From a phage, in sequence record PZ379177.1: 64,000 nucleotides of DNA, one strand, 5' to 3'. Below the pieces are notes generated by a model, which ran no database searches, was not told the DNA's origin, and was given only the letters and a program-made list of their open reading frames with translations. The position numbers and the translations under genes were made by a program. Positions 12,430 through 20,849 of this stretch are shown piece by piece (position 1 is the first letter of the stretch; each line of letters opens with the position of its first letter).

Positions 12430-13848
12430 TTATTCCCCTTTCAACCAAGCTTCAAATGCTTCGTCAGTTGCTGCAGAATCCGCAGCGGCCTTTTGTTTTG
12501 CGACTACACGCTGTTTTTGACCGTGTTCAACGCCGCGCAGATAGTTATCCACAACGTCAAACTCAGCACCATCAACGCACTTCAAGCCTAACTTTTTAGC
12601 GCCATATTTCGCTACGGACTTGGAGTCCATAGTTGCATGATCAAAGGCACCAACAACTTTAGACAGGCGCTGGTAGAGGCTATTCTTACGAGCAGAATCA
12701 GCGTAGAAAGCAGCAACTGCTGAATCAGATGCCATTGAGTGTTCCCCTTTTGCTGGACCTGGCGACGCTTTCGCCGCTTTTGTCGGTTTGTCATCTTTTT
12801 CGACCGAAGCCCCCTTTACGTTGCTGTTTTGCAGGCCGCTAACCACATCTTCAGCTTTGTCGCAAGGTGATACATCTTCAGCCTTGACTTCAACTTCTTC
12901 GTCTTTGACTTCGGCTTCAACTTCTTCTTCATCACCTACCGCGCCACCTTTCAGTTTTGCAATAAGTGCTTCGATTTGGCTGATCAGTTGCGGAAGCTCG
13001 CCACCAGCGTGAGATTCAGTTTCAACTTCAAACTTCTCTTCACCTTCTGGAGTCTCTTCAGCTTCTGCTTTGACTTCTGGATCAACCATCACTTCTTCAC
13101 GTTCTTCGGTTGAATCCTTCTCTTCTGCTTTCACTTCAACTTCGTCCTGATGAGCAGCTTCGGTGCTCTCTTCATTCAGAAATTGTTCGAGCGCAGGGAT
13201 CAGTGATTTCAGCTGTTCAACAGCATTATCACGCGCTTTACCTTTTAACGGTTTTGGCATGTCTAAATCCTCGTTGGATGGTGTTACAGTCGTCAAACAA
13301 AGATGGTCAAAGCAACGACCATCCAGCACCCGTGCACCTGGTACTCGACCAACGTCCACGAGAGCAATGTGGTTGCCGCGAAGAGTTGTCTGTACCACTT
13401 CATACGGCTGCCCGTCAAACTCTCCAGACTGTATGATGAATTCACAGTCATAGCCCAAAGACAAGTCAACCTTTCCAGAATCGATGGCTTTCTTCAGACG
13501 ACGGCTAAAAACTTTAAGATCGCCGCGCATCCATGGCTTGTCATAATAAACATTGCCAGTTAGAACGCCATCAACGCCATACTCTTCGGGTGCTGTGTTA
13601 TCCTCATCACCTTCGAATCCAGAAAGCATTTCGTGATTGTCTATGAAAGGGATATTTTTGAATGAATCTATCGCTTCGGGGTCTTTCACCGCTGACTCTG
13701 GGCGATAAACTTTTACGATGCGATTCGGATCACCATCAAGTCCAACCTGACCTGCAGAATAATCAAAAATGCCAAATGACGAAATGGGACAACCCACAAT
13801 CGTCAAGAATCCATTTTTGTCAATTTCGCGTGCCGTTTGCATTCGCAT
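12430..13848 (-). CDS. scaffolding protein with N-terminal prohead-protease-like domain (putative)
   Basis: 472 aa; C-terminal half highly acidic (E/K/V/A low complexity) typical of scaffolds; first gene of leftward structural operon. Confidence 0.45.
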   Translation of the reverse strand: MRMQTAREIDKNGFLTIVGCPISSFGIFDYSAGQVGLDGDPNRIVKVYRPESAVKDPEAIDSFKNIPFIDNHEMLSGFEGDEDNTAPEEYGVDGVLTGNVYYDKPWMRGDLKVFSRRLKKAIDSGKVDLSLGYDCEFIIQSGEFDGQPYEVVQTTLRGNHIALVDVGRVPGARVLDGRCFDHLCLTTVTPSNEDLDMPKPLKGKARDNAVEQLKSLIPALEQFLNEESTEAAHQDEVEVKAEEKDSTEEREEVMVDPEVKAEAEETPEGEEKFEVETESHAGGELPQLISQIEALIAKLKGGAVGDEEEVEAEVKDEEVEVKAEDVSPCDKAEDVVSGLQNSNVKGASVEKDDKPTKAAKASPGPAKGEHSMASDSAVAAFYADSARKNSLYQRLSKVVGAFDHATMDSKSVAKYGAKKLGLKCVDGAEFDVVDNYLRGVEHGQKQRVVAKQKAAADSAATDEAFEAWLKGE

Positions 13849-14413: not shown

Positions 14414-15334
14414 TTAGTTCAACTTAATTGCGGTGATCTGTCCGTAAACGGTAGATGTCAATGCGTCTGTGCATTGATAGTTTAGATACACGTTGCCAGG
14501 CGCGGCAAGAGTAATTATCTTTGTTGGGATATTGCCGCCGAAACGACCTGCAGCCCGAATGCCAGCTGACATTGTAAATGCATCATCCGTAATATCTGAA
14601 TTACTTGTTGACAGCTTGACTGTAATTCCGGTATTCGCTTGAACTCCTGCTGTCGCGACAGTCAACTGACTTGCTGTCACAAGCCATTTCCCTGCAGGCA
14701 GGTTTAAGGTTGCCAGATTCACCAGAGTTGTCGGAGGATTGCTTACGCTGTTGCTTGCGTTCTGCACAGTGCTTGCAGCAGCATTAAGGACGCCAGAACC
14801 ATCAATTGATAGTGTCGTTCCTACCTTTATGCCACCCAAGGTTGATGCTGATGCAATCGGTAATGAGTATTGAGTCACACTAATTGTACCGTCACCTGCA
14901 ACGCTTATGCCACTTCCTATTTTGACGCCGCCAAGAACAGAAGCCGTTGCCGCTGGTAGTGTGTATTGGTTGCTGCTGGATTTGACTACCTTAACGGCGA
15001 CAGCATTCTTGGACCCTCCAGACTCCATGCCTATAATCACTGCTTCTCCAAAAGCGATGGCGATCGTAGATGCAGTTAAACCAGTCTGCACGTCTGTTAT
15101 GTTCATTTTGGGAACTGAAAGTGTCAGATTCGGCTTGCTGGTAGAATCGCCATCATTACCGATCATAAAGAACTGGCCAACTGAATTGTATCCAGACGCC
15201 AATGGCGGACTCAATGGAACAATCAGGTTTTTATCGGATGTGAATTCCGAAACAATCGCCAAACCGTTAGCATATACAGCAGGCAATACTGGCGTTTGTC
15301 CAGATAGAGGAAACGTGCTGATTGGTATCGTCAT
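14414..15334 (-). CDS. fibre-like structural protein with internal sequence repeats
   Basis: repeated block ATASVLGGVKIGSGISVAGDGTISV / ASASTLGGIKVGTTLSIDGSGVLN; start trimmed to internal Met to avoid overlap. Confidence 0.45.
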   Translation of the reverse strand: MTIPISTFPLSGQTPVLPAVYANGLAIVSEFTSDKNLIVPLSPPLASGYNSVGQFFMIGNDGDSTSKPNLTLSVPKMNITDVQTGLTASTIAIAFGEAVIIGMESGGSKNAVAVKVVKSSSNQYTLPAATASVLGGVKIGSGISVAGDGTISVTQYSLPIASASTLGGIKVGTTLSIDGSGVLNAAASTVQNASNSVSNPPTTLVNLATLNLPAGKWLVTASQLTVATAGVQANTGITVKLSTSNSDITDDAFTMSAGIRAAGRFGGNIPTKIITLAAPGNVYLNYQCTDALTSTVYGQITAIKLN

Positions 15335-15341
15335 AATGACC

Positions 15342-16193
15342 TCAAATGATTGGTATTTTTCTGCACTTGCAGTGTATCGCCCATCCAGGAGGACCGATGT
15401 CACCCTTTTTGAACTTCAACTCTCCGCCCACTTCCCATAGACGCTTGTCATCAAGTTTGAATCTCATTCCGTCGACATGTTCATGAGAGATTCGCGGCTC
15501 CTTTCCTGCTCCTGAGTGCGCCCATTCAAATTCTTCAACTCCATTCTGGCGCATCCTTTCATCGCTTAGAACGCAATACAATTTGCTTGTCTGGTCTTTA
15601 GCGATTAAGTCGACTCTCTTTGCAGAGAAGTGTTTTACGTTTCGCAGCGCCGCCTGAATGCCTGACGTGCCTTGCTGGGCTGGGTCGGGCGAAGTCAGCG
15701 AAAGCATGACTGCTTCGTACACTCTGTTGTGAATATCCTCGCCGACCTTAGTCACTAGAGTCGTGTTAAACGTCTCGCTTGTTCTAAGAGTGTTCTCAAC
15801 GAATTTGTTATATGTGGCCTTTGGCGCTTCTATGCCTGCGGACTTAAGGCTGGCGAATGTAGCAGAAGTAGCACCCTTTTCAACCGACTTGATAAAATCA
15901 GCGGCAATCTTCGACCCAACACGAGCAAACGCCTTTGCCCATTTCAGCTGCAGACGTTTCATAAGAGTTTGGAATGTTGAATCAGCAGAGTCTTGCGCAA
16001 AGAACTTCTGCACCTGCTTCTTTTCAAGCCACTCTGAAATTCCTGCCTGATAGTCATCAATCATCGCATAGCAAAGACCTTTCATCTCACGACGGTAGGC
16101 CATCGCAATAGCGTTTGATGGGATTATCGGACTGCCGCGCCCGATTCTATCGGGTGAGCGGCGTTCACGTTTTTTCGAAGCTTTAAAAGCCAT
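15342..16193 (-). CDS. head morphogenesis protein, Mu gpF / SPP1 gp7 family
   Basis: motifs HEHVDGMRF and GPPGWAIHCKCR near C-terminus; located directly downstream of portal. Confidence 0.7.
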   Translation of the reverse strand: MAFKASKKRERRSPDRIGRGSPIIPSNAIAMAYRREMKGLCYAMIDDYQAGISEWLEKKQVQKFFAQDSADSTFQTLMKRLQLKWAKAFARVGSKIAADFIKSVEKGATSATFASLKSAGIEAPKATYNKFVENTLRTSETFNTTLVTKVGEDIHNRVYEAVMLSLTSPDPAQQGTSGIQAALRNVKHFSAKRVDLIAKDQTSKLYCVLSDERMRQNGVEEFEWAHSGAGKEPRISHEHVDGMRFKLDDKRLWEVGGELKFKKGDIGPPGWAIHCKCRKIPII

Positions 16194-16194
16194 A

Positions 16195-18603
16195 TCAACC
16201 TTGCTTCGGTGAATTAGTAGGATTATTGAGTGCTCCGTATGCTTGAGAGCAATCACCCTTCAACCACTCCTTGAATGAGTTCACATCTAATTCGTGGATT
16301 GAGTCGAATCCGTTCCAACCGTTACCAAATGATGCTTGATAAGCTTCTTTCGCTTCTTCTGCTGAATCGAATCCAAGCATACACTTGTGTTCATCAAACT
16401 CGCCAGAGTAGTTATCGTTTTGGTTCACGATAAAGACTTTCGGCGACTTCAGATTTGGACCCACAAAGCAGTCGACTTCATCACCGTCTGCGCCCTTGGT
16501 GCCCTTGATGAATCCGTAGTGGTGCGGCATCTTCACGGCCCATTCACCGTCAAGGCTGTTTCCTCTACGAATGCTGTTTCGCGGATTCTCAATGCCAAGA
16601 ATCATTCCGTGCAACTTCATCTTAGGTAATGATGCTGCGTCCATTTTACCCACGTTGTGGCGTAAGTTGACGACGTGTCCTTTAACGCTTGGAAGGGTAG
16701 ACGGTTGCACCGACCGTGAATCTTTTTGAGGGTCAAAATCCACATCCTGACCTTCTTTCAGGTAGTAATCCGCAATACCCTCCAGCCCTTCTTTCAACTG
16801 CGTTAGGACATCAACCTGATGGCTTGATTCATCACCGGTATCGTCCATGTTGATTTCGACAGGCGCTTTGTCAGGGTTTTCCGCCAACTCACCACGCGCA
16901 GCACCCTCTGGCATAATACCTGTTTCGCTATAGAACTGGCCGCCCATCTTAACGACATCAGCTTTCGCCTGTTCAATATCGGCCTTACCTTGCAGGACTT
17001 CACCAGCAGACTTGCCAAGCAATGCCATATTCTCTGGAGACATCCCTGGGGTTTCTTCTGCTGCGTCTTCCGGCAGACGGTTGTAGCCGCTGTTTTTGTC
17101 GTCTTTGATGCGGTCGCGCTCTTCATCAGGAGAAATGACGCCAGCATCAATAAGAGTTTTGCCAGTGTTGGCTCGCTTATCATTGATTTCTGCAAGTTGA
17201 GTAGCAGTAAGTGAGCCAACTGGTTCCCATGCAACCTTAACATCGACATCCACCCCTTCTGATTTGAGAAGGATTTTGTAATGGCGGTCGAGAATTTTTG
17301 TCAGGTCATGCTGCTGGCACGTTTCCAACTCTTCGTGATAGCTGACCATCTCGAATTCACCAGTGGCGTTAAAGCCTTTTGGCGAAGTCCCAAGCAGTTT
17401 GGTCGACGGAACTTTTGCGATTGCGGCCACAAGCTGGTACTGGTTCATGATGATGCTGTCGAAGTCTGACAAGTTGATGTCAAACTGGTCCATCTCTTCT
17501 TTTTGGCCAAGCACTTTGACTGCATAGTTGTCGCGGTACTTGATCCACATCATCAGACGTTCTGCAAAAGACCGCTCATTGGCAATAGCCTTGTCAACGT
17601 CGGTCCGCAGCGTCGTTGTACGCTTGGACATCGCCAGCAATGGCGCTTCGTTGGCGGTACGTTCAGCGGCATAGATGCGTTCATAAATCTGCTGAGTCAG
17701 AGGGATGCCGCCGTAAATATAAGTCGGCTTGAGAATATCAGCTGGCTCATCGTTGCGCAAGATTATGAGGTGGCTGCGATGATAACGTTGTCCGCTGATT
17801 ACCCAATATTCTGGGTCATAGAAGTGCTGTGATGCAGGGTCTGCCGTGTTTTCAGACGTCAGAAACGGCATCATCCAATAAGGGTCAACCTGAATGATTC
17901 CCTTATAAGACCCCTTTGTCACACCATCAATGTTAAAAGGCTTGCTGTAATATTCTGGGTCATCGCTACGCACATCAAATATGATGACGCGGATACCAAA
18001 AATATTTTTGAATCGTTCGGCTTCAACTAAGTGCTCTTTGATATTAAATTCTTTATCAATTTGCTTTAGGCGTTCGCTTGCCTGTACTGACAATTCTGAC
18101 TCAGAACTGGATTTGACTTCCCAACCTTTACGGACCGCATCGCGGCCTACCATGGAACACGCCTTGTTCACCAGCCAATGCTGTGCGATGATGGCACAAG
18201 CTTGATAGCCGATGAATGACTGTGACAGATACCAGTTTTGAAGTTGAATAGGTACTGTGTATGGGTTGACTTGCCCTTCTGAACTGATGTTCTTTAAGGC
18301 ATTATCCATAACCTTTTTGGATACTGTTGCGGAATCGACTGAACGACCTTTTATGATTGCAACACCATCGCCATTAATATCAGGCTCATATAAAGGGAAG
18401 TCATCAACCGTTTTAAAGGTCGGTCGATTGCTTTCAGTCTTTTCCCAGCGTTGACCGCTGCCGCGCCTTTCAAGGCGTTCAAACGGTGCCAATGGGTCGC
18501 CTGGCGGCATCTCCGCTGGTTCGGCTTCTGGTTGCGTCTTCTCCCAGAGTTTTATGCCAAGAATTTTCATTGTTAACGCCACCTGACAGTGAAAGGGAAT
18601 CAA
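16195..18603 (-). CDS. portal protein with C-terminal inorganic pyrophosphatase-like domain
   Basis: 802 aa between terminase and Mu-F-like gene; C-terminal HHYGFIKGTKGADGDEVDCFVG and AEEAKEAYQASF resemble family I PPase YGYINHTLSLDGDPVDVLV and AEAAKAEIVASF. Confidence 0.6.
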   Translation of the reverse strand: MIPFHCQVALTMKILGIKLWEKTQPEAEPAEMPPGDPLAPFERLERRGSGQRWEKTESNRPTFKTVDDFPLYEPDINGDGVAIIKGRSVDSATVSKKVMDNALKNISSEGQVNPYTVPIQLQNWYLSQSFIGYQACAIIAQHWLVNKACSMVGRDAVRKGWEVKSSSESELSVQASERLKQIDKEFNIKEHLVEAERFKNIFGIRVIIFDVRSDDPEYYSKPFNIDGVTKGSYKGIIQVDPYWMMPFLTSENTADPASQHFYDPEYWVISGQRYHRSHLIILRNDEPADILKPTYIYGGIPLTQQIYERIYAAERTANEAPLLAMSKRTTTLRTDVDKAIANERSFAERLMMWIKYRDNYAVKVLGQKEEMDQFDINLSDFDSIIMNQYQLVAAIAKVPSTKLLGTSPKGFNATGEFEMVSYHEELETCQQHDLTKILDRHYKILLKSEGVDVDVKVAWEPVGSLTATQLAEINDKRANTGKTLIDAGVISPDEERDRIKDDKNSGYNRLPEDAAEETPGMSPENMALLGKSAGEVLQGKADIEQAKADVVKMGGQFYSETGIMPEGAARGELAENPDKAPVEINMDDTGDESSHQVDVLTQLKEGLEGIADYYLKEGQDVDFDPQKDSRSVQPSTLPSVKGHVVNLRHNVGKMDAASLPKMKLHGMILGIENPRNSIRRGNSLDGEWAVKMPHHYGFIKGTKGADGDEVDCFVGPNLKSPKVFIVNQNDNYSGEFDEHKCMLGFDSAEEAKEAYQASFGNGWNGFDSIHELDVNSFKEWLKGDCSQAYGALNNPTNSPKQG

Positions 18604-18732
18604 TCTATATTATAAATATTCATGTGTTTGTAAGCAAATGATATGTATGGTGATCATAAATAGTTCATAAAATATTTTGCTTTTGTATCATTTTGAGTTA
18701 TATTTTAGTTAACTAAACGAAAGGAGATTGAA

Positions 18733-19149
18733 ATGAGCACAACAATTGTATTTGTCGTCCTACACAACGGCGAAGTCGTTAACGTATGCGAATATGAAGA
18801 AATGGCAAAGGCCACTGCTGCGAGATACGAAGGTGCTACTATTGACCCGTGGATTTTAGATGCGCGCAGCGTCTTGCAGGCGACTTTAGATGAGTGGTTG
18901 TTGGGTCGCAAGGTCTATCCAGTAGACAACATCGACTCAATTCAAGGCGAAACAGTATACTTTGAAGATGAATGCGTTCGCGGCATCGGCAAATTTATGG
19001 GATTATGTCCATCTTCATCCAAAAATAAATTTTATCGTATTCAAGTTGAAGAAAACGATATGTTTGACAAAGTCACGCGCTCGATTGTTCCTGGCGGCGG
19101 CACTCCAATCTTTATGGCAGAATCAGACATCAAGGGGATTATCAAATGA
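18733..19149 (+). CDS. hypothetical protein
   Basis: 138-aa ORF with strong RBS AAAGGAG 6 nt upstream of ATG. Confidence 0.5.
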   Translation: MSTTIVFVVLHNGEVVNVCEYEEMAKATAARYEGATIDPWILDARSVLQATLDEWLLGRKVYPVDNIDSIQGETVYFEDECVRGIGKFMGLCPSSSKNKFYRIQVEENDMFDKVTRSIVPGGGTPIFMAESDIKGIIK

Positions 19150-19388: not shown

Positions 19389-20849
19389 TCAAAGGTTAGA
19401 GAAGAAGCCGGATGCTGCAACAATTGGTTTCATCAACGCCATGATTGCTGCGTCCGCTTTGTTAGGCGATTTGACTCCACGCTTTGCCATATCCTTTTTC
19501 GATTCAACTTTAAACTTACCAAGCACAGACGTGTCTTTGCGCGGCGCTGACATCTCAAAAAGAAATGTCTCAATTTCTTCCGCAGACCAAGCAGGAATCC
19601 CAAGTTCTGGAATGCCGTCTGTGTCGATGGAAATCAGCTCATCAGTCGGGTATACGGCCTGCCCTGTTGCATACTCATATGTCTTCCTGAATCGTTCGGC
19701 AATCTCAGTCCATTTTTGCGCTTTTATGTTTGCGAAATGGTCTTTATTGAGTATTTCAACGTGTGGTAACTCAAGGAAGACGTCATCAGGATCATCAACA
19801 GCACCTTGCGCGTTGAACGCATTAAATTCGATTCTTGGGAATGTTGGATTTTCATGGATTGCATACTCATTAAGCTCATCAAATTTTGAACCAGCAAATG
19901 CACCAACACCGATGGCGTCATAGGTAATTGATGCGCCGAATGTTAATGCATCTTTCCAAACTCCGCTTGCGGACTTAAGCAATTCATCTTCCAGACCTTC
20001 CCATGTCTTGATGCCGCGCAATACGTTGCCCGTGACAAATGCTGTGGCGTTTAAGTCGTCGCCGTCGTCTGCCACGTCAAAGCCTATGCGGTTAGACCCT
20101 GACAAGCTCCATCCCAGCGTAGGGTGTTTGTGTAGGTTTAGCGCGGCCTTGACGAATGCACGGTTTATGACAGACTTGTCGCCGCCTGTCTTCGGTACTC
20201 CGCCATAAACGTGTTCTGCCTTTTTCGGGTCGCGCTCATACATGCCAGCAATAACGTCCAGCATTGTTTGCGACAAGAATGGATTGTCCTGCCAGTTAAT
20301 CTTCTTAACGATGGCGTTCTTCGGCGGTCGCATGACAAAGTTCTGGTAGACGAAATCAGCCTCTTCATCAGGGTTAAATATGATCCATATTTCGGACCCT
20401 TCCTTACGAATTGTCGGCTCAATAATGTCCCACTGCTCTTCAGTCAGCGCGTGCGCTTCCTCAAGCCAAAGAACATCAACGCCTTCTGTTGATTTGATTT
20501 CGTCAACGTTGCGTGCAATACCGTAAAATAAAAATTCAGATTTTGTTCTTTTGTGTTCAATAGAGTTCTTTAATAAGTTGAACTCGTCTTTAAAATCAGA
20601 AATCTCTATTTTGTCTTTTAATAGCGTATATACTGATTCAGAAATCTTGTTCTGGAATTGTCGGACGCAAAGGAATTTTAATTTAAAGTTTGCCGCCAAA
20701 TAAATAGCAAAACCAGCGGCATCATGCGATTTGGAAGATGCACGACCGCCGTATATTACTTTGTATCGCGCTTTCGTCTTCCAGACTTCTCTTAAAGCAG
20801 GATTCAACTGGTACATGACTTTCCAATTATGTGTTAATATTTTATTCAT
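19389..20849 (-). CDS. terL: terminase large subunit
   Basis: 486 aa; Walker A-like KVIYGGRASSKSHD near N-terminus, acidic nuclease-type C-terminal half. Confidence 0.8.
   Translation of the reverse strand: MNKILTHNWKVMYQLNPALREVWKTKARYKVIYGGRASSKSHDAAGFAIYLAANFKLKFLCVRQFQNKISESVYTLLKDKIEISDFKDEFNLLKNSIEHKRTKSEFLFYGIARNVDEIKSTEGVDVLWLEEAHALTEEQWDIIEPTIRKEGSEIWIIFNPDEEADFVYQNFVMRPPKNAIVKKINWQDNPFLSQTMLDVIAGMYERDPKKAEHVYGGVPKTGGDKSVINRAFVKAALNLHKHPTLGWSLSGSNRIGFDVADDGDDLNATAFVTGNVLRGIKTWEGLEDELLKSASGVWKDALTFGASITYDAIGVGAFAGSKFDELNEYAIHENPTFPRIEFNAFNAQGAVDDPDDVFLELPHVEILNKDHFANIKAQKWTEIAERFRKTYEYATGQAVYPTDELISIDTDGIPELGIPAWSAEEIETFLFEMSAPRKDTSVLGKFKVESKKDMAKRGVKSPNKADAAIMALMKPIVAASGFFSNL

What the first reader, a model, noticed from the sequence alone, without database searches (positions are those of the whole stretch)
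16195..16640. Portal protein appears fused to a C-terminal inorganic-pyrophosphatase-like domain
The last roughly 150 residues of the 802-aa portal ORF contain HHYGFIKGTKGADGDEVDCFVG and, near the end, AEEAKEAYQASF. These resemble the family I PPase active-site stretch (YGYINHTLSLDGDPVDVLV in E. coli Ppa) and its C-terminal helix (AEAAKAEIVASFERA). The DxDxxD metal-binding pattern is preserved (DGDEVD). I do not recall an enzymatic domain of this kind on a portal; if real it would place a PPi-hydrolysing activity inside the capsid or at the packaging vertex.
Basis: partly seen in the sequence, partly recalled or inferred. Interest (0 to 1): 0.55.

Follow-up and report, generated by a model that had tools for sequence, protein, structure and literature searches.

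The report
Phage portal with tethered pyrophosphatase domain
The portal protein of this E. coli phage (genus Wifcevirus) really does end in a small pyrophosphatase-like enzyme domain, but this fusion is already catalogued and common in related phages, and nobody has yet tested what the enzyme does.

Summary

**The gene.** The minus-strand ORF 16195..18603 (probable true start ATG 18570, 791 aa) is the portal gene of a Wifcevirus, 99.7% identical to phage Bas99.

**Domains.**
- Residues 133-479 match Pfam Phage_portal_3 (E 3.5e-88).
- Residues 660-782 match Pfam PF18823 "InPase" (157 bits against a cut-off of 26.8).

**Catalytic residues.** Equivalents of E. coli Ppa E20, K29 (as Arg), Y55, D65, D67, D70, D102 and K104 are present and near-invariant in 194 InPase domains. 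E31 is lost. R43, D97, Y141 and K142 have no secure equivalents.

**The fusion is real and selected.** It is one intact ORF in four Wifcevirus genomes, with dN/dS 0.015-0.027 in the domain. The InPase domain is present in 115 of the 120 closest portal homologues.

**Prior knowledge.** Iyer et al. 2017 described InPase domains and named portal fusions. Cryo-EM of the related E217 and Pa193 portals left this region unresolved. Activity, substrate and the domain's fate in the virion are untested.

The parts
16195..18570 (-). Portal-InPase gene (791 aa plus stop). The mechanical ORF extends to a TTG at 18603.
   Evidence: ORF list. The ATG at 18570 has an AGGTGG ribosome-binding site 8 nt upstream. 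The same start is annotated in Bas99, Mansfield and FEC19. Full-length match to the Pa193 gp19 portal 9b41, E 6.6e-251. PHROG 4660 matches full length at 1271 bits.
17167..18207 (-). Portal core, aa 133-479 (802-aa numbering), Pfam Phage_portal_3
   Evidence: PF06381 at E 3.5e-88. 65% identical to the PB1 and Pluto portals. dN/dS 0.000-0.006 within the genus.
16984..17166 (-). Conserved stem/barrel segment, aa 480-540. It corresponds to the last part resolved in the E217 and Pa193 portals: the helical barrel that projects into the head.
   Evidence: 52-54% identity to PB1 and Pluto. The Pa193/E217 models end at residue 528. Taking PB1 residue 532 as its equivalent (PB1 is 4 aa longer; an assumed offset), this maps to about window aa 551.
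16627..16983 (-). Poorly conserved, acidic, Gly/Pro/Ser/Ala-rich linker, aa 541-659. A small conserved island R630-x3-P634-S635 lies just before the enzyme domain.
   Evidence: 21-22% identity to PB1 and Pluto. Mean column conservation 0.29, against 0.76 for the core and 0.61 for InPase, over 121 sequences. Composition.
16258..16626 (-). InPase domain (PF18823), aa 660-782: a compact family-I-like (OB-fold) pyrophosphatase domain
16588..16590 (-). Glu672, equivalent of E. coli Ppa E20
   Evidence: hhalign alignment. Glu in 178 of 182 InPase domains.
16567..16569 (-). Arg679, equivalent of Ppa K29
   Evidence: hhalign alignment. Arg in 179 of 182 domains.
16468..16521 (-). HYGFIKGTKGADGDEVDC (aa 695-712): Tyr696 (equivalent of Ppa Y55) and the metal-binding Asp706, Asp708 and Asp711 (equivalents of D65, D67, D70)
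   Evidence: hhalign and phmmer alignments to PPases. Y in 184/184 domains, D65 in 180, D or E at 67 in 178, D70 in 183. The signature occurs once in the window, with 0.005 expected.
16384..16398 (-). FDEHK (aa 736-740): Asp737/Glu738 and Lys740, proposed equivalents of Ppa D102 and K104 on the second strand of the beta-hairpin
   Evidence: D in 184, E in 185 and K in 182 of about 188 domains. The equivalence is inferred from hairpin position in the AF2 secondary structure and the H. pylori PPase alignment. It was not confirmed by a coordinate superposition.
15342..16193 (-). MuF-like head morphogenesis gene. Its ATG lies one base downstream of the portal stop codon (TGAtATG).
   Evidence: Sequence. 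PF04233 and PHROG 324. Bas99 annotation.
12430..13848 (-). Head maturation protease/scaffold gene (DUF2213), the candidate for any processing of the portal linker
   Evidence: PF09979 at E 5e-35 and PHROG 3778 at E 8.5e-173.

Best explanation
This is the portal gene of a Wifcevirus myophage, and its product has two conserved modules.

**Portal module (shown by homology).** The N-terminal about 550 residues form the dodecameric portal ring. In the homologous E217 and Pa193 portals this ring ends in a helical barrel that points into the capsid.

**Enzyme module.** A variable, acidic linker of about 120 residues follows. It tethers a domain of about 125 residues from the InPase family (Pfam PF18823), a trimmed-down relative of family I soluble inorganic pyrophosphatases. 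The domain keeps the acidic cluster that holds the two catalytic Mg2+ ions and the nucleophilic water: Glu672, Asp706, Asp708, Asp711 and Asp737/Glu738. It also keeps two basic residues (Arg679, Lys740) and Tyr696, which contact the phosphates in classical PPases.

**Inferred mechanism.** The domain is most likely an active Mg2+-dependent diphosphate hydrolase. Twelve copies per virion would be packed inside the head next to the portal, too mobile to be seen after symmetry averaging. The enzyme would act in the cytoplasm of the newly infected cell, after release from the portal by proteolysis in the linker. There it would hydrolyse PPi, or a pyrophosphate-containing nucleotide, at the very start of infection. 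This is what Iyer et al. proposed for InPase modules of virion-packaged polyvalent proteins.

**Shown:** the architecture, the homology, the fold and purifying selection.
**Inferred:** catalysis, substrate, location in the mature virion, release and delivery.

The confidence given applies to the whole chain including delivery. The architecture and homology part alone is about 0.97, and catalytic competence about 0.7.
For: **Architecture**
- PF06381 at aa 133-479 and PF18823 at aa 660-782.
- 9b41 portal matches at E 6.6e-251 over aa 14-779.

**Fold**
- AF2 model pLDDT 85.8, pTM 0.79.
- Foldseek top 50 are all PPases, probability 0.91-1.00 (1.00 for most).

**Sequence link to classical PPases**
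- hhalign gives 93% probability and E 2.8e-7.
- Another InPase copy (in P0152) passes the PF00719 gathering score.

**Active site**
- E31, R38, Y55, D65, D/E67, D70, D96, E97 and K99 (fragment numbering) are each conserved in about 96-100% of 194 InPase domains. All are present in this protein.

**Selection**
- dN/dS is 0.015-0.027 in the domain within the genus.
- The domain is 59-61% identical across phages of Escherichia, Pseudomonas and Luteibacter, while the linker is 21%.
- 115 of the 120 nearest portal homologues carry the domain.

**Capsid-interior location**
- The E217/Pa193 portal barrel projects into the head. Residues 529-765 follow it and have no density.
- The Pa193 paper singles out only the first 93 residues as not detected by LC-MS. 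This weakly implies that the rest is in virions.

**Cargo role**
- The same domain sits in giant virion-associated polyvalent proteins.
- It has also fused independently to a portal of a different Pfam family, PF04860.
- Iyer et al. 2017 make the same proposal.
Against: - No biochemical, proteomic or structural datum shows activity, substrate, or presence of the domain in mature Wifcevirus or Pbunavirus particles.
- Portal proteins are not known to leave the capsid, and no cleavage site in the linker has been demonstrated.
- A folded 15 kDa domain is close to the ~37-40 Å tail-tube lumen reported for Pa193 and E217.
- Several residues that bind PPi and the substrate-borne metals in E. coli Ppa are missing or cannot be placed. 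E31 is Gly. R43, D97, Y141 and K142 have no secure equivalents. PPi may therefore not be the substrate.
- The classical Pfam PPase model scores below its threshold (17.9-20.4 against 23.5).
- Five close portal relatives lack the domain, so it is dispensable for portal function. This fits an accessory role but does not prove delivery.
Confidence: 0.5

Rival explanations
1. The domain is an active pyrophosphatase, but it works in the producing cell or at the assembling vertex and is never delivered. It could act as part of unassembled or assembling portal protein late in infection, clearing PPi from massive phage DNA and RNA synthesis. In the virion it would then be a passenger that stays attached to the portal.
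For: - The domain is covalently part of a protein that stays in the capsid, and no release mechanism is known.
- The portal gene is in the late structural module.
- Wifcevirus phages are reported to replicate unusually fast (BASEL preprint). This would produce PPi rapidly.
- The conserved active site is equally compatible with this reading.
Against: - The host already has an abundant Ppa enzyme (established knowledge).
- The same domain is overwhelmingly found inside giant virion-packaged polyvalent proteins, next to anti-restriction and other early-acting modules.
- Tethering to the capsid-interior end of the portal would be pointless for a purely cytoplasmic enzyme.
Confidence: 0.2
2. The enzyme is active, but its substrate is a nucleotide-derived molecule rather than inorganic pyrophosphate. 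Candidates are an immune second messenger, an alarmone or a nucleoside polyphosphate. On this reading the portal carries an anti-defence hydrolase.
For: - Several PPi-binding residues of classical PPases are lost or cannot be placed: E31, R43, D97, Y141, K142.
- New family-specific invariant residues appear: Gln728, His739, Tyr755, Trp688.
- Iyer et al. note neighbourhood links of related InPases to NUDIX, GNAT and TmrB, and suggest a nucleotide-like substrate.
- One family member combines two InPase copies with a LigD 3'-phosphoesterase domain.
Against: - The metal-binding core and the Lys/Arg/Tyr triad are those of a PPi hydrolase.
- No family I PPase relative is known to prefer nucleotides (established knowledge).
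- There is no direct evidence either way.
Confidence: 0.2
3. The domain is a catalytically dead structural module. It might be an internal plug, a spacer, or a sensor of DNA ends or of the packed DNA, and only retains the PPase fold.
For: - OB folds often bind nucleic acids.
- The domain lies where the last-packaged DNA end sits (inference).
- Classical PF00719 scores below its threshold.
Against: - Near-invariance of six acidic residues plus Arg, Lys and Tyr at the positions of the PPase active site, across 194 very diverse domains, is the signature of catalysis, not of a scaffold.
- An acidic cluster is ill-suited to binding DNA.
- The domain also occurs in many non-portal contexts.
Confidence: 0.07
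4. The fusion is a sequencing or assembly frameshift that joins two genes, or the motif similarity is chance.
For: None found.
Against: - The ORF is identical in length and intact in TH32, Mansfield and FEC19, with 19-24 synonymous against 2-3 non-synonymous differences in the domain.
- DNA matches cover at least 80% of the gene in 29 phage records, and the listed Wifcevirus records match over its full length.
- 115 of 120 portal homologues have both Pfam domains.
- The Pa193 portal chain deposited in the PDB has the same C-terminus.
- The Pfam E-value is 3e-46.
Confidence: 0.01

Closest known systems
InPase domain of phage polyvalent proteins (Pfam PF18823; Iyer, Burroughs, Anand, de Souza & Aravind 2017, J Bacteriol, PMC5512222), including portal-InPase fusions such as BcepF1.124
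   Same: - The window protein matches the Pfam model over positions 12-135 of 135, at 157 bits.
- It has the same conserved acidic residues.
- It has the same portal-plus-C-terminal-InPase architecture that the paper names.
   Different: Nothing of substance; this protein is simply another member. The N-terminal 11 positions of the Pfam model are not matched. The paper's example is a Burkholderia phage, not a Wifcevirus.
Pbunavirus portal gp19 (Pa193, PDB 9B41; E217, PDB 8FVH)
   Same: - Full-length homologue: E 6.6e-251 over aa 14-779.
- Same two-module layout and the same neighbouring genes, MuF then protease.
- 65% identity in the core and 59% in InPase.
   Different: - Different host genus.
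- The linker is only about 21% identical.
- In both cryo-EM studies the C-terminal 237 residues were invisible, and the pyrophosphatase domain is not mentioned.
Family I soluble inorganic pyrophosphatase (E. coli Ppa, PF00719, EC 3.6.1.1)
   Same: - Same Y-G-[FY]-I...D-x-D-x-x-D core.
- Equivalents of E20, K29, Y55, D65, D67, D70, D102 and K104 are present.
   Different: - About 125 residues against 175, with 11 fewer residues between E20 and Y55.
- E31 is replaced by Gly.
- No secure equivalents of R43, D97, Y141 or K142.
- Scores below the PF00719 threshold.
- It is a tethered module of a structural protein rather than a free hexameric enzyme.
Enzymatic cargo domains fused to head-interior proteins (MuF/gp7-type and portal fusions to PBECR RNases, 2H phosphoesterases and toxins)
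   Same: The logic is the same: an enzyme hangs on a head protein of a terminase-portal phage, is presumed packaged and then acts in the next host (Iyer et al. 2017). The MuF gene here lies immediately downstream.
   Different: The MuF protein of this phage carries no extra domain. The cargo here is on the portal itself, which is not known to be ejected.

Membership tests
Pfam PF18823 InPase (polyvalent-protein type pyrophosphatase domain) | Score above the curated gathering threshold of the family model | tested here: met
   157 bits (160.3 for the isolated C-terminus) against a cut-off of 26.8, model positions 12-135 of 135.
Pfam PF18823 InPase (polyvalent-protein type pyrophosphatase domain) | Conserved acidic metal-binding residues of the family | tested here: met
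   Glu672, Asp706, Asp708, Asp711, Asp737 and Glu738 are all present. Each is conserved in about 96-100% of 194 family domains.
Pfam PF18823 InPase (polyvalent-protein type pyrophosphatase domain) | Lacks the beta-hairpin insert that classical family I PPases have between the first and second core strands (Iyer et al. 2017) | tested here: inconclusive
   There are 24 residues between the E20 and Y55 equivalents, against 35 in E. coli Ppa, so the region is shortened. The AF2 model still shows a short hairpin at fragment positions 37-50. No coordinate superposition was possible.
Pfam PF18823 InPase (polyvalent-protein type pyrophosphatase domain) | Occurs in virion-associated phage proteins (polyvalent proteins, portal fusions) | tested here: met
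   It is fused to the portal here. Relatives are found in giant phage proteins and in another portal family.
Family I soluble inorganic pyrophosphatase (PF00719, EC 3.6.1.1) | Score above the PF00719 gathering threshold | tested here: not met
   17.9 bits (whole protein) and 20.4 bits (C-terminus) against 23.5. Only 25 residues are matched.
Family I soluble inorganic pyrophosphatase (PF00719, EC 3.6.1.1) | PPase signature D-[SGDN]-D-[PE]-[LIVMF]-D-[LIVMGAC] (pattern recalled from PROSITE) | tested here: met
   DGDEVDC at aa 706-712. It is the only match in six frames of the window, with 0.005 expected.
Family I soluble inorganic pyrophosphatase (PF00719, EC 3.6.1.1) | PPase OB-fold barrel | tested here: met
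   [not shown]
Family I soluble inorganic pyrophosphatase (PF00719, EC 3.6.1.1) | Full set of 13 conserved active-site residues (E. coli E20, K29, E31, R43, Y55, D65, D67, D70, D97, D102, K104, Y141, K142) | tested here: not met
   Eight have equivalents: E20, K29 (as Arg), Y55, D65, D67, D70, D102 and K104. E31 aligns with an invariant Gly. R43, D97, Y141 and K142 have no conserved counterpart that could be placed.
Family I soluble inorganic pyrophosphatase (PF00719, EC 3.6.1.1) | Mg2+-dependent hydrolysis of PPi | not testable with these tools
   Needs an enzyme assay. No published assay of any InPase domain was found.
Phage portal protein (PF06381 Phage_portal_3; Pbunavirus gp19 type) | Family model above threshold, and homology to a portal seen in a virion structure | tested here: met
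   PF06381 at 296 bits against 33.8. Matches to 9b41 (E 6.6e-251), 8fvh (E 1e-189) and the Pam3 portal (E 1.6e-14).
Phage portal protein (PF06381 Phage_portal_3; Pbunavirus gp19 type) | Position in the head-assembly module (terminase ... portal, MuF, protease, major capsid) | tested here: met
   Bas99 annotation at 99.7% identity. Window ORFs: TerL 19389-20849, MuF 15342-16193, protease 12430-13848.

The most novel reading that the evidence does not exclude
The twelve portal-tethered InPase domains are cut loose in the head and are among the first phage proteins to enter the cell with the DNA. There they destroy a pyrophosphate-containing nucleotide signal or alarmone of a host defence system, rather than inorganic PPi. 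On this reading the portal of Wifcevirus and Pbunavirus phages, which include therapeutic P. aeruginosa phages, doubles as a carrier of a pre-made anti-defence enzyme.
Probability: 0.12. Interest if true: 0.6.

Novelty: already known. Interest (0 to 1): 0.25.

Why it matters
The finding itself adds no new kind of system. The domain family has a Pfam model, and the fusion to portals was described in 2017.

What remains open is experimental. No InPase domain has been assayed. No structure exists, because the two cryo-EM studies of the homologous E217 and Pa193 portals could not see this region and do not mention the enzyme. Nobody knows whether the domain stays on the portal, is cleaved, or is delivered.

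The carriers include Pbunavirus phages used in therapy. The family has more than 12,000 sequence clusters, mostly inside giant virion proteins. Showing what this enzyme hydrolyses, and when, would therefore inform how phages pre-arm their particles. BASEL phage Bas99, nearly identical to this window, would be a tractable E. coli model for that.

Tried and rejected
- **Residue mapping beyond the core motif.** hhalign in global and low-mact modes gave mutually inconsistent, zero-confidence alignments downstream of D70. The equivalents of D97, D102, K104, Y141 and K142 therefore rest on hairpin position and conservation, not on a superposition.
- **Broadening the classical-PPase profile.** A database search with E. 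coli Ppa listed only close relatives (at least 82% identity among the 120 shown). It hardly improved the profile (Neff 1.7).
- **Experimental evidence.** Literature searches found nothing on portal pyrophosphatases, on PB1-like virion proteomes, or on a link between Acb1 and DUF1073. The Pa193 supplementary proteomics tables are not held.
- **NCBIfam.** There is no specific model, only TIGR01555 below its cut-off.
AEEAKEAYQASF was considered as homologous to Ppa's C-terminal helix. This was rejected as unproven (see the observation check).
- **Frameshift or chance explanations.** Rejected.
Full report
**What is there**

The window contains a minus-strand ORF 16195..18603 of 802 codons counted from a TTG. 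The biologically likely start is the ATG at 18570. It is preceded by AGGTGG and is the start annotated in the near-identical phages Bas99, Mansfield and FEC19. This gives 791 aa.

At DNA level the gene is 99.7% identical to Escherichia phage ManiWeber_Bas99. It matches 29 phage records over at least 80% of its length, mostly Wifcevirus, so the window is a Wifcevirus genome.

**Domain content**

- Pfam finds Phage_portal_3 at aa 133-479 (E 3.5e-88) and PF18823 "InPase" at aa 660-782 (157 bits, cut-off 26.8).
- The classical pyrophosphatase model PF00719 touches only aa 690-714 and stays below its threshold (17.9 against 23.5 bits).
- PHROG 4660 matches the whole protein end to end (1271 bits). 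The C-terminal part alone also hits many PHROGs of very large phage proteins.
- Against the PDB, the full protein matches the Pa193 portal gp19 (9b41, E 6.6e-251, aa 14-779) and the E217 portal (8fvh, E 1e-189, aa 107-538). Classical PPases appear only at E 0.02-1 on the YG[FY]I...DGDxVD stretch.

**Is the C-terminal domain really PPase-like?**

I aligned the last 161 residues with 24 homologues and modelled the domain with AlphaFold2 (mean pLDDT 85.8, pTM 0.79, core above 90).

- In Foldseek the first 50 hits are all PPases (probability 0.91-1.00, E about 1e-4, TM 0.29-0.48).
- Profile-profile comparison with the E. coli Ppa family gives 93% probability and E 2.8e-7 over fragment positions 25-73.
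- A PPase signature pattern (recalled from PROSITE) occurs once in the six-frame translation of the window, with 0.005 expected.
- One family member's InPase copy passes the PF00719 threshold.

Homology with family I PPases is therefore well supported. It is remote, and it is exactly what the Pfam family description says.

**Active site**

In the confident part of the alignment, the following residues correspond to E. coli Ppa residues:

| Window residue | E. coli Ppa residue |
|---|---|
| Glu672 | E20 |
| Arg679 | K29 |
| Tyr696 | Y55 |
| Asp706, Asp708, Asp711 | D65, D67, D70 |

E. coli E31 aligns with an invariant Gly.

Downstream, the beta-hairpin KVFIVNQN...FDEHKCML matches the PPase hairpin that carries D97, D102 and K104. 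The invariant Asp737-Glu738-x-Lys740 is the likely counterpart of D102-x-K104 (supported by the H. pylori alignment). This is an inference.

Over 194 InPase domains the listed residues are conserved in about 96-100% of sequences. So are the family-specific Trp688, Gln728 and Tyr755, and to a lesser degree His739. No conserved equivalents of R43, D97, Y141 or K142 could be placed.

The picture is of a conserved two-metal hydrolytic centre with a partly remodelled substrate pocket.

AEEAKEAYQASF pairs with Ppa's C-terminal helix only in a zero-confidence global alignment. By the order of secondary-structure elements (strand, helix, strand, helix) it corresponds to the first helix after the D-x-K strand. 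I treat the resemblance as unproven.

**Is the fusion real and maintained?**

- The ORF is intact and of the same length in TH32, Mansfield and FEC19.
- In the InPase segment there are 19-24 synonymous against 2-3 non-synonymous differences (dN/dS 0.015-0.027). This is comparable with the linker (0.03-0.06) and only a little above the portal core (at most 0.006).
- Identity to the portals of Pseudomonas phage PB1 and Luteibacter phage Pluto, by region: core 65%, barrel region 52-54%, linker 21-22%, InPase domain 59-61%. A 121-sequence alignment shows the same pattern.
- A search with the portal core alone found 115 of the 120 nearest cluster representatives (55-100% identity) carrying PF06381 plus PF18823. 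Two others end soon after the barrel. Three (682-693 aa) keep the linker but not the enzyme.

A frameshift artefact is excluded. The domain is an accessory that is usually kept.

**Wider family and prior knowledge**

- A profile search of 1.84 billion cluster representatives found 12,193 InPase-containing proteins (8,600 at E below 1e-30). Among the top 148 the median length is 1,801 aa and the domain is mostly internal. These are the giant polyvalent proteins.
- Examples in phage genomes include a Vibrio phage protein of over 2,700 aa and the 4,877-aa DarB-like protein of Agrobacterium phage Atu_ph08.
- A portal of a different Pfam family (PF04860) also carries a C-terminal InPase, which indicates an independent fusion.
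- Iyer et al. 2017 (PMC5512222) defined the domain and noted its lack of a beta-hairpin present in solved PPases. They stated explicitly that versions are fused to the portal domain (BcepF1.124). They proposed that it is injected and either clears PPi or processes a nucleotide-like substrate.
- The Luteibacter phage orthologue is already annotated "inorganic pyrophosphatase".

The finding is therefore already known at the level of sequence analysis.

**What is not known**

The cryo-EM studies of E217 and Pa193 built the portal only to residue 528 of 765. [quoted passage not shown] Via the PB1 alignment, that boundary falls at about aa 551 of the window protein (assuming a 4-residue PB1/Pa193 offset). 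The whole linker plus InPase is thus the unseen part.

The Pa193 authors single out only the first 93 residues as not detected by LC-MS. This hints that the C-terminal part is in virions, but I could not read the peptide tables. I found no assay of any InPase domain.

**Most likely mechanism**

Twelve copies of a small Mg2+-dependent diphosphate hydrolase are tethered by flexible linkers to the capsid-interior end of the portal. Because there is no substrate in the capsid, the enzyme must act either in the producing cell or in the next host.

I favour action in the next host. The reasons are the family's overwhelming association with virion-packaged multi-effector proteins and the parallel with MuF- and portal-borne effectors. 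This requires release by proteolysis, and the head maturation protease gene at 12430-13848 is the obvious candidate. It also requires passage through a ~37-40 Å tube. Neither step has been shown.

Rivals are weighed in the structured fields: action only in the producing cell, a nucleotide rather than PPi substrate, or a non-catalytic structural role.

**Verdict**

Novelty is "already known". Interest is modest: it is a well-founded but ordinary annotation result that points to an untested enzyme in a tractable E. coli phage.

Noticed in passing
window 14414-15403 (-): A 329-aa ORF sits between the MuF gene and the head protease gene, inside the head-assembly module. It is annotated 'tail fiber protein' in Bas99. 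It carries repeated ...YSLP.A(S/T)AS.LGG.K.G... motifs. It has only weak PHROG tail hits (E 1e-6 to 2e-12) and no Pfam-level or NCBIfam assignment. PB1 has two small unrelated ORFs at this position.
   Followed up: partly
window 18571-18732: The intergenic region between the portal gene and the divergently oriented small genes (18733..19149 +) may hold divergent promoters. On the portal strand there is a perfect TATAAT (18609-18614) with a weak -35 (TTGCTT, 17-nt spacer). This pair did not pass the scan's threshold. On the + strand there is a 10/12 promoter-like site, CTGACA-17-TATATT, at 18583-18611. PB1 has an annotated sigma-70 promoter before its portal gene.
   Followed up: partly
P0407 (Citrobacter sp., 768 aa, 57% identical portal-InPase homologue): NCBI and UniRef name this homologue 'anti-CBASS protein Acb1 family protein'. 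Pfam finds only Phage_portal_3 plus InPase in it. No paper links Acb1 with DUF1073. The name looks like an annotation carry-over attached to the portal domain rather than evidence of anti-CBASS function.
   Followed up: partly
P0384, P0390, P0395 (682-693 aa) and P0307, P0397 (545-564 aa): These are close portal relatives (56-64% identity) without the InPase domain. Three keep the linker, including the R-S-T-x-P-S-type island, and end in a short unrelated ~45-aa tail. Two stop soon after the barrel. This suggests loss or exchange of the C-terminal module.
   Followed up: partly
window 16699-16716 (aa 630-635 of the portal ORF): A small conserved island (R630, P634, S635) lies in an otherwise unconserved linker, about 25 residues before the InPase domain. 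It is also retained in relatives that lack the domain. It could be a processing or docking site. This was not tested.
   Followed up: no
P0233; P0150-P0156 and P0152 (representative proteins): InPase also occurs at the C-terminus of a portal of another Pfam family (PF04860, P0233). It occurs as tandem double copies in several proteins. In P0152 it is combined with a LigD 3'-phosphoesterase domain, and one InPase copy there passes the classical PF00719 threshold.
   Followed up: partly
window 12430-13848 (-): The head maturation protease gene encodes a DUF2213 domain (aa 7-174). It is followed by a long Glu/Lys/Val-rich low-complexity stretch and a C-terminal region, which looks like a protease-scaffold fusion. 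In Pa193 the homologous module leaves a helix-turn-helix remnant under the capsid vertices.
   Followed up: no
window 1-64000: ARAGORN found no tRNA or tmRNA genes in the window.
   Followed up: yes
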